From the human T2T-CHM13v2.0 reference genome, Homo sapiens: a DNA stretch of 64,000 bases. Where the stretch lies: NCBI RefSeq assembly GCF_009914755.1, contig NC_060929.1. One strand, written 5' to 3'. The notes below the pieces were generated by a model. It was not told the origin of the DNA, searched no databases, and was given only the letters and a program-made list of their open reading frames with translations. Shown here in pieces: positions 34,965 to 35,450 of this stretch; position 1 is the stretch's first letter, and each line of letters starts with the position of its first letter. The position numbers were made by a program, and so were the translations under genes.

Positions 34965-35450
34965 GAAACACTGAAGCTTAGGTTCACCAAAGCTATACTG
35001 AAAAAGCAAACCTAGGAAAGTCCCACTAAGGTCTCCTGAAAAAGTTTTAACTTATCCCCAAGACTCTGTGGATACATGTTCATAGGTTATCTGCAAAGAT
35101 CCCACACATTTTTTAAGGGAACAGCTAAACAAATTGGCCCCAACAGAAATACAAATAAATGGATTAAAAACTGGCTATCTAACCGTATACAGAGAGAAAT
35201 CGTAATTGGTAGTCCGTCTAGTTGGGGAGAGGTTTCCAGTAGGGTCCCACAAGGATCGATATTGGGTCCCATTTTGTTTAATATCTTTATAAAAAATCTG
35301 GAAGACAAAGTAGAGAATGTGCTAATTAAGTCGATTGATGCTACTAGATTAGGCCTGATGGTTAAAGTAAATTGGATATAGATAAATGCTACTGGCCTTT
35401 AGAAATCCTTTAGATAAAGGCTAACAGAGAATGGGAATTTGAGTAAGTTT
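34965..35450 (+). mobile_element. Fossil CR1/L3-type LINE reverse transcriptase fragment
   Basis: + frame (35076-35381) reads SH...[65 protein letters not shown]. This matches the CR1-clade RT pattern WIxxWLxxRxQRVxxNGxxSxWxxVxSGVPQGSVLGPxLFxIFINDLxxxxxxxLxKFADDTKLG; catalytic FADD has decayed to SIDA. Upstream aggttcaccaaa (RFTK) resembles the QHGFTK motif. Confidence 0.85.
35184..35297 (-). CDS. GABRB2: GABRB2 alternative cassette exon (beta2L 38-aa TM3-TM4 loop insert)
   Basis: 114 nt, phase 0/0. Acceptor cattctctactttgtcttccag|ATT, donor ACG|gttaga. Translates [38 protein letters not shown], the known beta2L insert, in frame between ...LDVNK and MDPHEN.... Confidence 0.95.

What the first reader, a model, noticed from the sequence alone, without database searches (positions are those of the whole stretch)
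35076..35381. The beta2L alternative exon is the codon-aligned antisense of a fossil CR1/L3 LINE reverse transcriptase
Seen: the 38 minus-strand codons of the exon (35184-35297, [38 protein letters not shown]) occupy exactly the same triplets as 38 plus-strand codons reading [38 protein letters not shown]. These lie inside a longer frame WIKNWLSN...[19 protein letters not shown]. Established: this is the non-LTR RT PQG signature (SGVPQGSVLGPxLFxIFINDL...KFADDTKLG) in its CR1-clade form. Both splice sites come from RT sequence: the acceptor CAG is the complement of the Leu codon CTG, the polypyrimidine tract is the complement of the purine-rich EDKVEN codons, and the weak donor GTTAGA is the complement of TCT AAC. 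RT similarity is best inside and next to the exon, while the catalytic FADD just outside has decayed to SIDA. Inference: an ancient retrotransposon fragment was exonised in antisense to create the intracellular-loop insert of a neurotransmitter receptor, including its RRTT kinase-consensus site, and selection on the receptor frame preserved the RT frame. I cannot tell from the sequence whether this origin has already been reported.
Basis: partly seen in the sequence, partly recalled or inferred. Interest (0 to 1): 0.9.

Follow-up and report, generated by a model that had tools for sequence, protein, structure and literature searches.

The report
GABRB2 exon 10 from antisense LINE
The alternative exon that makes the long form of the GABA-A receptor beta2 subunit really is a piece of an ancient LINE reverse-transcriptase gene read backwards, but its LINE (L3) origin was already annotated and mentioned in a 2009 paper.

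Summary
The 38 codons of GABRB2 exon 10 (35184-35297, minus) use the same triplets as 38 plus-strand codons. These sit in a 113-codon open frame (35040-35378).

The plus frame is an unmistakable non-LTR reverse-transcriptase (RT) relic. Pfam RVT_1 gives E 1.4e-5. A search of 1.84 billion proteins gives 12,590 hits at E<=1e-3, with non-orthologous hits down to 5e-32. Related proteins carry an APE endonuclease plus RVT_1.

The homology covers about 35100-35366. It runs 60-84 bp and 66 bp into the two introns and contains both splice sites. Nothing more of the element is detectable nearby.

The cassette occurs in mammals, turtles and squamates, so it dates to the amniote stem. The 7 bird and alligator proteins I examined carry only a different, adjacent 17-residue cassette. 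The chicken beta2L exon is therefore not homologous. No similar exon exists elsewhere in the human genome.

The core idea is not new. Zhao et al. 2009 (PMC2741204) state that exon 10 with 85 bp and 66 bp of flank is annotated as LINE3 in the UCSC browser. [quoted passage not shown]

That paper does not mention:
- the antisense, codon-aligned RT register;
- the RT origin of the splice sites;
- the RT origin of the Thr365 codon.

Verdict: real, tidy, essentially already known.

The parts
35184..35297 (-). GABRB2 alternative exon 10 (38 codons), the beta2L insert in the M3-M4 intracellular loop
   Evidence: Hub annotation; translation. The same peptide is present in full-length beta2 proteins of mammals, turtles and squamates.
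35100..35366 (+). Relic of a non-LTR (L3/CR1-type) LINE reverse-transcriptase ORF. It is a single frame with no frameshift or stop, covering the fingers/palm segment from the W..NWL motif through VPQGS..GP..F to the decayed FADD position.
   Evidence: tblastn of 17 RT proteins gave 19 HSPs, all within 35067-35369 in frame +3 and none elsewhere in the window. The profile HMM scored 120.6 bits on 35124-35366. Pfam RVT_1 gave E 1.4e-5. Zhao 2009 cite the UCSC LINE3 annotation of exon 10 plus 85 bp and 66 bp of flank.
35040..35378 (+). 113-codon stop-to-stop open frame containing the RT relic. There is no evidence that it is translated.
   Evidence: Only 6 of 7,987 frames in the window are this long. 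Upstream of residue 28 there is no RT similarity. In the probable mammalian orthologue P0027 the N-terminal part diverges as non-coding DNA would.
35298..35320 (-). 3' splice site of exon 10: the acceptor AG and the polypyrimidine tract. They are the complement of the RT codons L-E-D-K-V-E-N.
   Evidence: Sequence; RT alignment.
35178..35183 (-). 5' splice site GTTAGA of exon 10, the complement of the RT codons TCT AAC (S-N of WLSN)
   Evidence: Sequence; RT alignment.
35208..35219 (-). RRTT codons of the exon, the complement of RT codons GGT AGT CCG TCT (G-S-P-S). The second Thr (ACC, 35208-35210) is the complement of the Gly codon of the RT's conserved G-S position. I take it to be the Thr365 of the literature (precursor T389 minus a 24-residue signal peptide, which is an inference).
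   Evidence: Sequence; numbering from the alignment; RT alignment. Zhao 2009 report that T365A abolishes the extra run-down.

Best explanation
A CR1-group (RepeatMasker: L3) LINE inserted into the intron between GABRB2 exons 9 and 11, in the opposite orientation to the gene. This happened before the last common ancestor of amniotes.

A 114-nt piece of its reverse-transcriptase ORF, read on the antisense strand in the codon-aligned register, became a cassette exon. The acceptor AG and pyrimidine tract come from the complement of purine-rich RT codons. The weak GT donor comes from the complement of an AAC codon.

The exon adds 38 residues to the M3-M4 intracellular loop, giving beta2L. These include an R-R-T-T site whose second Thr (Thr365) has been shown by others to control ATP-dependent current run-down.

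Purifying selection on the exon, and on about 60-85 bp of splice-flanking intron on each side, kept this piece recognisable as RT. The rest of the element decayed beyond detection.

Shown here: the RT homology and its extent, the register, the splice-site origin, and the phyletic distribution among annotated proteins. Taken from the literature: the L3 label, the absence of the exon in frog and fish, and the Thr365 function. Inferred: the order of events, the role of the flanks in splicing, and loss of the cassette in archosaurs.
For: - The register and both translations are confirmed.
- RT homology: RVT_1 E 1.4e-5; 12,590 hits at E<=1e-3 in 1.84e9 proteins. Non-orthologous hits such as P0029 (5.3e-32) and P0031 are themselves RVT_1 at E 1e-32 to 1e-33.
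- Long relatives carry Exo_endo_phos_2 or Exo_endo_phos plus RVT_1.
- A profile of 18 long relatives matches LINE-1 ORF2p at 1.3e-35 and R2 at about 1e-16.
- The homology block 35100-35366 contains the exon and both splice sites and runs into both introns.
- The human genome holds many weaker, mostly stop-ridden relics of the same RT segment. With two outside RT fragments as queries, this locus was the top match. P0160 gave 66 bits against 50.8 for the next, with 38 matches and 150 of 2,223 candidates scored. P0086 gave 70.9 bits against 53, with 15 matches and 150 of 4,986 scored.
- The cassette is present in 9 of the 17 beta2 sequences I picked: 3 mammal, 2 turtle and 4 squamate.
- In 37-codon forms the missing codon is the W, which pairs with the P of the RT VPQG motif.
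- At the 13 exon positions where human and the 37-codon orthologous ORF P0039 differ in the RT frame, one of the two still matches the RT family majority at 10 (my count from rows printed). This is as expected for descent from an RT.
- Suh 2015 state that the ancestral amniote genome held many CR1 lineages and that mammals keep relics (abstract and passages).
Against: - The Pfam score is below the gathering cut-off (25.3 against 29.6 bits).
- No other part of a LINE was found within 32500-38000: no endonuclease, no rest of the RT, no 3' end. The next best of 426 six-frame pieces had E 2.6. The element is therefore inferred from about 270 bp only.
- Clade assignment (CR1/L3 rather than L2 or another CR1-group lineage) was not tested here.
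- The hub's list of NCBI-masked stretches of 100 bp or more does not include this site.
- P0160 and P0086 were chosen from hits to this very ORF. The 'best-preserved relic' ranking is therefore biased in its favour, and only 150 candidates per search were scored.
- Absence of the cassette in birds, crocodilians, amphibians and fish rests on annotated proteins and on one paper, not on genome alignments that I could run.
Confidence: 0.9

Rival explanations
1. The RT resemblance is a chance or compositional similarity of the antisense frame of an ordinary exon.
For: The Pfam hit is below the gathering threshold. Only a retron RT at E 0.073 was found by single-sequence search of the PDB.
Against: There are 12,590 hits at E<=1e-3 and 427 at E<=1e-10 in a library of 1.84e9 proteins. 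The profile scores 120.6 bits. Similarity continues into both introns, where no receptor coding constraint exists. The UCSC L3 annotation is independent.
Confidence: 0.01
2. The plus-strand 113-codon frame is itself a domesticated, translated RT-derived gene or micro-protein, and that is why the frame stays open.
For: The frame is unusually long for this AT-rich window (6 of 7,987). It is also open in a probable mammalian orthologue (P0027, 114 aa, 77% identity). The ESM Atlas holds the ORF from residue 13 as a predicted protein.
Against: The catalytic motif is lost (SIDA). The first 28 residues have no RT similarity, and between human and P0027 residues of about 10-26 differ as a frameshifted non-coding stretch would. 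The receptor frame is more conserved than the RT frame (human against Podarcis 29/38, against Gopherus 33/38, versus 25/38 in the RT frame against P0039, counted by eye). A third frame, another antisense one, is equally open (103 codons), which points to composition and constraint rather than coding.
Confidence: 0.02
3. The element is real but belongs to L2 or another CR1-group lineage rather than to L3/CR1 proper.
For: No labelled CR1, L2 or Rex1 references were available. The profile built here is unlabelled. Suh 2015 note that L2 is close to non-tetrapod CR1-like elements.
Against: RepeatMasker/UCSC call it LINE3, as quoted by Zhao 2009. From memory (not from any call), the best non-orthologous hits look like avian and reptilian CR1 pol.
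Confidence: 0.1

Closest known systems
UCSC/RepeatMasker L3 (LINE/CR1) annotation over GABRB2 exon 10, as quoted by Zhao et al. 2009, PLoS One 4:e6977 (PMC2741204)
   Same: The same locus and practically the same extent. They give 85 bp and 66 bp of flank. My RT block has 84 bp and 66 bp on the plus strand. They report the same phyletic pattern: mammals and lizard, but not chicken, frog or fish.
   Different: The paper gives one sentence. The words 'antisense' and 'reverse transcriptase' do not occur in it (0 occurrences). It does not discuss the reading-frame register, the RT origin of the splice sites or of Thr365, turtles, or the second sauropsid cassette.
Exonisation of ancient transposed elements (Alu, MIR, L2, CR1) into alternative cassette exons. 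Examples: Sela et al. 2007 (PMC2394776) and Attig et al. 2018 (PMC6108849). For both I saw only the search listing and abstract.
   Same: The exon and both splice sites lie within a TE fragment. The orientation is antisense, the donor is weak, and the exon is alternatively spliced.
   Different: This exon is much older than most catalogued cases (amniote stem). It is in frame, conserved at the protein level, and has a functional phosphosite. It derives from the coding core of the RT rather than from UTR or SINE sequence.
Chicken beta2L 17-residue exon (Harvey et al. 1994, seen only as a reference)
   Same: It inserts at the same position in the M3-M4 loop, is an alternative cassette, and carries a putative kinase site.
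   Different: It is a separate exon. Turtles and squamates carry both cassettes in tandem (4 of the 17 sequences). No relic of the 17-residue cassette is detectable in the human intron.
GABRG2 gamma2L 8-residue cassette with a PKC site
   Same: A small alternative cassette in the M3-M4 loop of a GABA-A subunit that adds a phosphorylation site.
   Different: As far as I know, no transposon origin has been described for it.

Membership tests
Reverse transcriptase domain (Pfam RVT_1, PF00078) | Score at or above the Pfam gathering cut-off | tested here: not met
   25.3 bits against a cut-off of 29.6, E 1.4e-5, profile positions 101-143 of 205. It is a fragment of the domain, not a whole domain.
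Reverse transcriptase domain (Pfam RVT_1, PF00078) | Significant sequence homology to bona fide RT proteins | tested here: met
   12,590 hits at E<=1e-3. Of the 8 non-orthologous hits I scanned, all 8 had RVT_1 at E 1e-24 to 1e-40.
Reverse transcriptase domain (Pfam RVT_1, PF00078) | Intact catalytic Y/F-x-D-D motif | tested here: not met
   The aligned position reads S-I-D-A. This is a relic, not an enzyme.
Non-LTR (LINE) retrotransposon ORF2 | Relatives combine an APE-type endonuclease with the RT and are homologous to L1 ORF2p and R2 | tested here: met
   Exo_endo_phos or Exo_endo_phos_2 plus RVT_1 in P0121, P0144, P0178, P0185 and P0188. The profile matches L1 ORF2p at 1.3e-35 and R2 at about 1e-16.
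Non-LTR (LINE) retrotransposon ORF2 | Dispersed multi-copy family in the same genome | tested here: met
   There are 9 further human matches to the ORF segment, at 34-49% identity, 7 of the 9 with stops. P0160 gave 38 matches and P0086 gave 15.
CR1 / L3 clade | Best match to CR1/L3 consensus models (Dfam or Repbase), or placement with CR1 in an RT tree | not testable with these tools
   No labelled repeat library is held. The label rests on the UCSC LINE3 annotation quoted in PMC2741204 and on recalled CR1 motifs.
CR1 / L3 clade | CR1-type 3' end (hairpin and short microsatellite, no poly-A) | not testable with these tools
   Only about 270 bp of RT survive. Nothing else of the element was detected in 32500-38000.
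TE-derived (exonised) cassette exon | The exon and both splice sites lie inside the TE-homologous segment | tested here: met
   The exon 35184-35297, donor 35178-35183 and acceptor/pyrimidine tract 35298-35320 all lie within 35100-35366.
TE-derived (exonised) cassette exon | The exon is absent from paralogues and from lineages that branched off before the insertion | tested here: inconclusive
   No other match to the exon peptide exists in the human genome at E<=1. No amphibian or fish protein appeared among 24 hits of 25 candidates or 47 of 79, but these searches see only annotated isoforms. Zhao 2009 report absence in frog and fish from genome alignments.

The most novel reading that the evidence does not exclude
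Beyond the published one-line L3 annotation, four further readings remain open.

1. This may be the best-preserved CR1/L3 reverse-transcriptase relic in the human genome. It would have been kept for more than about 300 million years because the antisense of the RT core became a receptor loop.
2. The regulatory Thr365 is encoded by the complement of the RT's conserved Gly codon.
3. The RT-derived intron flanks are more conserved than the exon itself between mammals and a sauropsid-type orthologue. They may be the splicing-control elements of the cassette.
4. Archosaurs may have lost this cassette and kept only a second, unrelated 17-residue cassette that mammals lack.
Probability: 0.45. Interest if true: 0.4.

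Novelty: already known. Interest (0 to 1): 0.3.

Why it matters
It is a clean, very old example of a transposon's coding core being reused backwards as a functional protein segment in a disease-relevant neurotransmitter receptor, with a tested phosphosite.

It also suggests a practical point. The exon-10 'alternative splicing hotspot', linked by others to schizophrenia and bipolar disorder, is built entirely from LINE sequence, so its splicing control elements are LINE-derived too.

The origin is already annotated and in print, and TE exonisation is a well-known process. The added value here is therefore detail and dating, not discovery.

Tried and rejected
- Single-sequence search of solved structures with the ORF gave only a retron RT at E 0.073 and an irrelevant Pol gamma B hit. 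It was uninformative, so I replaced it with a profile search.
- I looked for more of the LINE around the exon. The profile HMM against 426 six-frame pieces of 32500-38000 gave nothing beyond the one block. The weak look-alikes at 34371-34445 (E 2.4) and 34730-34765 (E 11) are not significant and not collinear.
- A DNA search of the human genome with 35100-35363 found only the locus itself. The other relics are too diverged for DNA-level detection.
- I looked for a relic of the sauropsid 17-residue cassette in the human window by tblastn. Only the known exon-11 and exon-10 flanks matched.
- The ESM Atlas gave RVT_1 clusters, the top one from Chordata, but no clade-level label.
- A search of the own genome with an alignment is not accepted. 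I used single proteins instead.
- Literature searches in the held library (PMC Creative Commons papers plus bioRxiv) paired GABRB2 with exonization, exapt-, transposable, retrotranspos- and 'long interspersed', six mixed terms at a threshold of 3, listed no paper containing GABRB2. Only PMC2741204 links the exon to a LINE. Subscription-only papers are not covered.
- Supplements of PMC3765721 (TE-derived exon catalogue, 3 files) do not contain GABRB2.
- dN/dS in the two frames and a cross-species DNA alignment could not be done, because no vertebrate genomes other than the window's own are held.

Full report
**1. The observation**

The minus strand of 35184-35297 translates to the 38-residue beta2L insert IFYKDIKQ...DFSLYT. 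The plus strand of exactly the same coordinates, frame 1, reads [10 protein letters not shown]...NIFIKN. The two frames therefore share the same triplets.

The plus frame is open from 35040 to 35378, 113 codons. Only 6 of the 7,987 stop-to-stop frames in this 36% GC window are as long.

The acceptor is ...TTCTCTACTTTGTCTTCCAG|. Its CAG is the complement of the Leu codon CTG at 35298-35300. Its pyrimidine tract is the complement of the purine-rich codons E-D-K-V-E-N. The donor |GTTAGA is the complement of TCT AAC at 35178-35183.

**2. Is the plus frame a reverse transcriptase (RT)?**

Yes.
- Pfam RVT_1 matches 35157-35354 at E 1.4e-5 and 25.3 bits, below the 29.6-bit gathering score, as expected for a quarter of a domain.
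- phmmer of the 113-residue frame against 1.84 billion representative proteins gave 12,590 hits at E<=1e-3, 427 at E<=1e-10 and 3 at E<=1e-30.
- Three short top hits (P0027, P0039, P0056; 73-82% identical) look like the same locus predicted as an ORF in other vertebrates.
- The remaining hits are unrelated RT proteins, typically 45-50% identical over ORF residues 21-108.
- Of 8 such hits that I scanned, all carry RVT_1 at E 1e-24 to 1e-40, and P0121, P0144 and P0178 also carry an APE-type endonuclease. The precomputed domains show the same.
- A profile of 18 long hits matches human LINE-1 ORF2p at 1.3e-35 and R2 proteins at about 1e-16 in the PDB.

The family is thus an APE-type non-LTR retrotransposon, distinct from L1.

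**3. Extent of the relic**

tblastn of 17 RT proteins against the whole window gave 19 HSPs. All lie between 35067 and 35369, all in one frame, and none lies elsewhere.

A profile HMM built from 118 hit segments, each with up to 170 residues of flank, scored 120.6 bits on ORF residues 29-109, i.e. 35124-35366. Nothing else among 426 six-frame pieces of 32500-38000 scored; the next best had E 2.6.

The relic is therefore about 270 bp. It extends 60-84 bp beyond the exon on the donor side and 66 bp on the acceptor side, and both splice sites lie inside it. At the catalytic motif position the alignment reads SIDA.

Identity to the family majority residue is 24/38 in the exon, 7/20 in the left flank and 9/23 in the right flank. 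Intact family members show the same gradient (means 0.76, 0.53 and 0.61). Most of the 'best inside the exon' effect is therefore the RT's own conservation profile.

**4. A repeat family in the same genome**

The ORF segment matches 9 other places in the human genome at E<=0.01, with 34-49% identity; 7 of the 9 contain stops.

With two outside RT fragments as queries, the GABRB2 locus was the top human match:
- P0160: 66 bits against 50.8 for the next; 38 matches; 150 of 2,223 candidates scored.
- P0086: 70.9 bits against 53 for the next; 15 matches; 150 of 4,986 candidates scored.

Both queries were drawn from the hit list of this very ORF, so the ranking is biased in its favour.

A DNA search found only the locus itself.

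**5. Age and distribution**

The exon peptide, extended by one codon on each side to reach the tool's minimum length, found 24 proteins among 25 candidates. These are beta2 subunits of placentals, a therian UniRef cluster, and 8 turtle entries at 83-85% identity (alignment).

A second search used the loop region of a turtle isoform and found 47 proteins among 79 candidates, adding squamates, birds and an alligator.

I picked 17 sequences and cut out the loop:
- 9 of 17 carry the cassette: 3 mammals with 38 residues, and 2 turtles and 4 squamates with 37 residues (the W is missing).
- 12 of 17 carry a different 17-residue cassette immediately after it.
- 4 of 17 (1 turtle, 3 squamates) carry both in tandem.
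- 0 of the 7 bird and alligator sequences carry the first cassette.

The chicken 17-residue beta2L exon is therefore a separate exon, not a shortened homologue. The first cassette goes back to the amniote ancestor. Its absence in archosaurs is either loss or missing annotation.

The human window holds no detectable relic of the 17-residue cassette.

The RRTT site is kept in mammals and turtles, but the 4 squamates read RWTA.

The exon peptide matches nothing else in the human genome at E<=1. GABRB1 and GABRB3 therefore have no counterpart at this sensitivity.

**6. What kept the relic**

In the receptor frame, human against Gopherus is 33/38 identical and human against Podarcis is 29/38 (my count).

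In the RT frame, human against the 37-codon orthologous ORF P0039 is 25/38 in the exon but 20/23 in the flanking intron codons (my count). The splice-flanking intron is thus at least as constrained as the exon. This is typical of conserved alternative exons, and it explains why RT similarity survives exactly in the exon plus or minus 60-85 bp.

At the 13 exon positions where human and P0039 differ in the RT frame, one of the two still carries the RT family's majority residue at 10 positions (human 7, P0039 3). This is what descent from an RT predicts.

The missing W of the 37-residue forms pairs with the P of the RT VPQG motif. The 38-residue mammalian form therefore keeps the RT codon count.

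The codon-aligned register itself is a 1-in-3 outcome. A second antisense frame is also open for 103 codons. I give the register no special weight.

**7. Function**

The following is from the literature and was not tested here. Zhao et al. 2009 (PMC2741204; passages read) report that exon 10 brings a CaMKII-type site at Thr365. They also report that T365A removes the greater ATP-dependent current run-down of beta2L receptors.

By my numbering, precursor T389 minus a 24-residue signal peptide gives Thr365. This is the second T of RRTT. Its codon is ACC at 35208-35210, the complement of the GGT Gly codon at the RT's conserved G-S position.

**8. Prior knowledge**

[quoted passage not shown] Their 85 bp and 66 bp flanks match my 84 bp and 66 bp.

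The words 'antisense' and 'reverse transcriptase' do not occur in that paper.

Searches of the held library paired GABRB2 with exonization, exapt-, transposable, retrotranspos- and 'long interspersed', six mixed terms at a threshold of 3, listed no paper containing GABRB2. They found no other paper that links this exon to a transposon.

One TE-exon catalogue's supplements do not list GABRB2.

Suh et al. 2015 (PMC4316615; abstract and passages) support the background: the ancestral amniote genome was rich in CR1 lineages, and relics of these remain in mammals.

**9. Verdict**

However, the LINE origin of the exon is already annotated and in print, and exonisation of ancient repeats is a known process.

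New here:
- the antisense, codon-aligned RT register;
- the RT origin of both splice sites and of the Thr365 codon;
- the turtle and squamate evidence for an amniote-stem origin;
- the demonstration that the bird exon is a second, separate cassette;
- the indication that this is an unusually well-kept RT relic.

The clade label (L3/CR1) could not be tested with the tools at hand.

Noticed in passing
window 35090-35398 (minus strand, a frame other than the exon's): A second antisense frame is open for 103 codons across the same region. Three of the six frames are therefore long and open here, in 36% GC DNA.
   Followed up: partly
Proteins P0025, P0026, P0199-P0203 (turtles, squamates); no window coordinates: Sauropsid beta2 has a second 17-residue cassette directly after the 37-residue one. 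It is the only cassette in the bird and alligator sequences examined, and no relic of it is detectable in the human intron 3245-35183.
   Followed up: yes
Protein P0206 (Passerculus beta2 isoform, 520 aa): It carries a different 29-residue insert at the place of the 37-residue cassette, ahead of the 17-residue one. This could be a mis-predicted exon or a degenerate remnant; there is no clear similarity to the mammalian cassette.
   Followed up: no
G000 C1:82227338-82227580, C3:17668245-17668523, C7:139074350-139074607, C18:26038627-26038869, C11:131613936-131614142, C6:33629106-33629240: Several other human relics of the same RT segment have no stop codon inside the match. They might be further constrained or exonised CR1/L3 fragments.
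   Followed up: no
Protein P0012 (UniRef 'Theria' beta2, 529 aa): Its N-terminal third is replaced by sequence with L1 ORF1-type Pfam domains (PF02994, PF17490). This looks like a gene-model artefact that fuses a LINE-1 ORF1 to GABRB2.
   Followed up: no
window 34371-34445 (+) and 34730-34765 (+): Short peptides resemble the RT motif that precedes the relic (HMM positions 175-188), at E 2.4 and E 11. They are not significant and not at the expected distance, so they are probably chance.
   Followed up: partly
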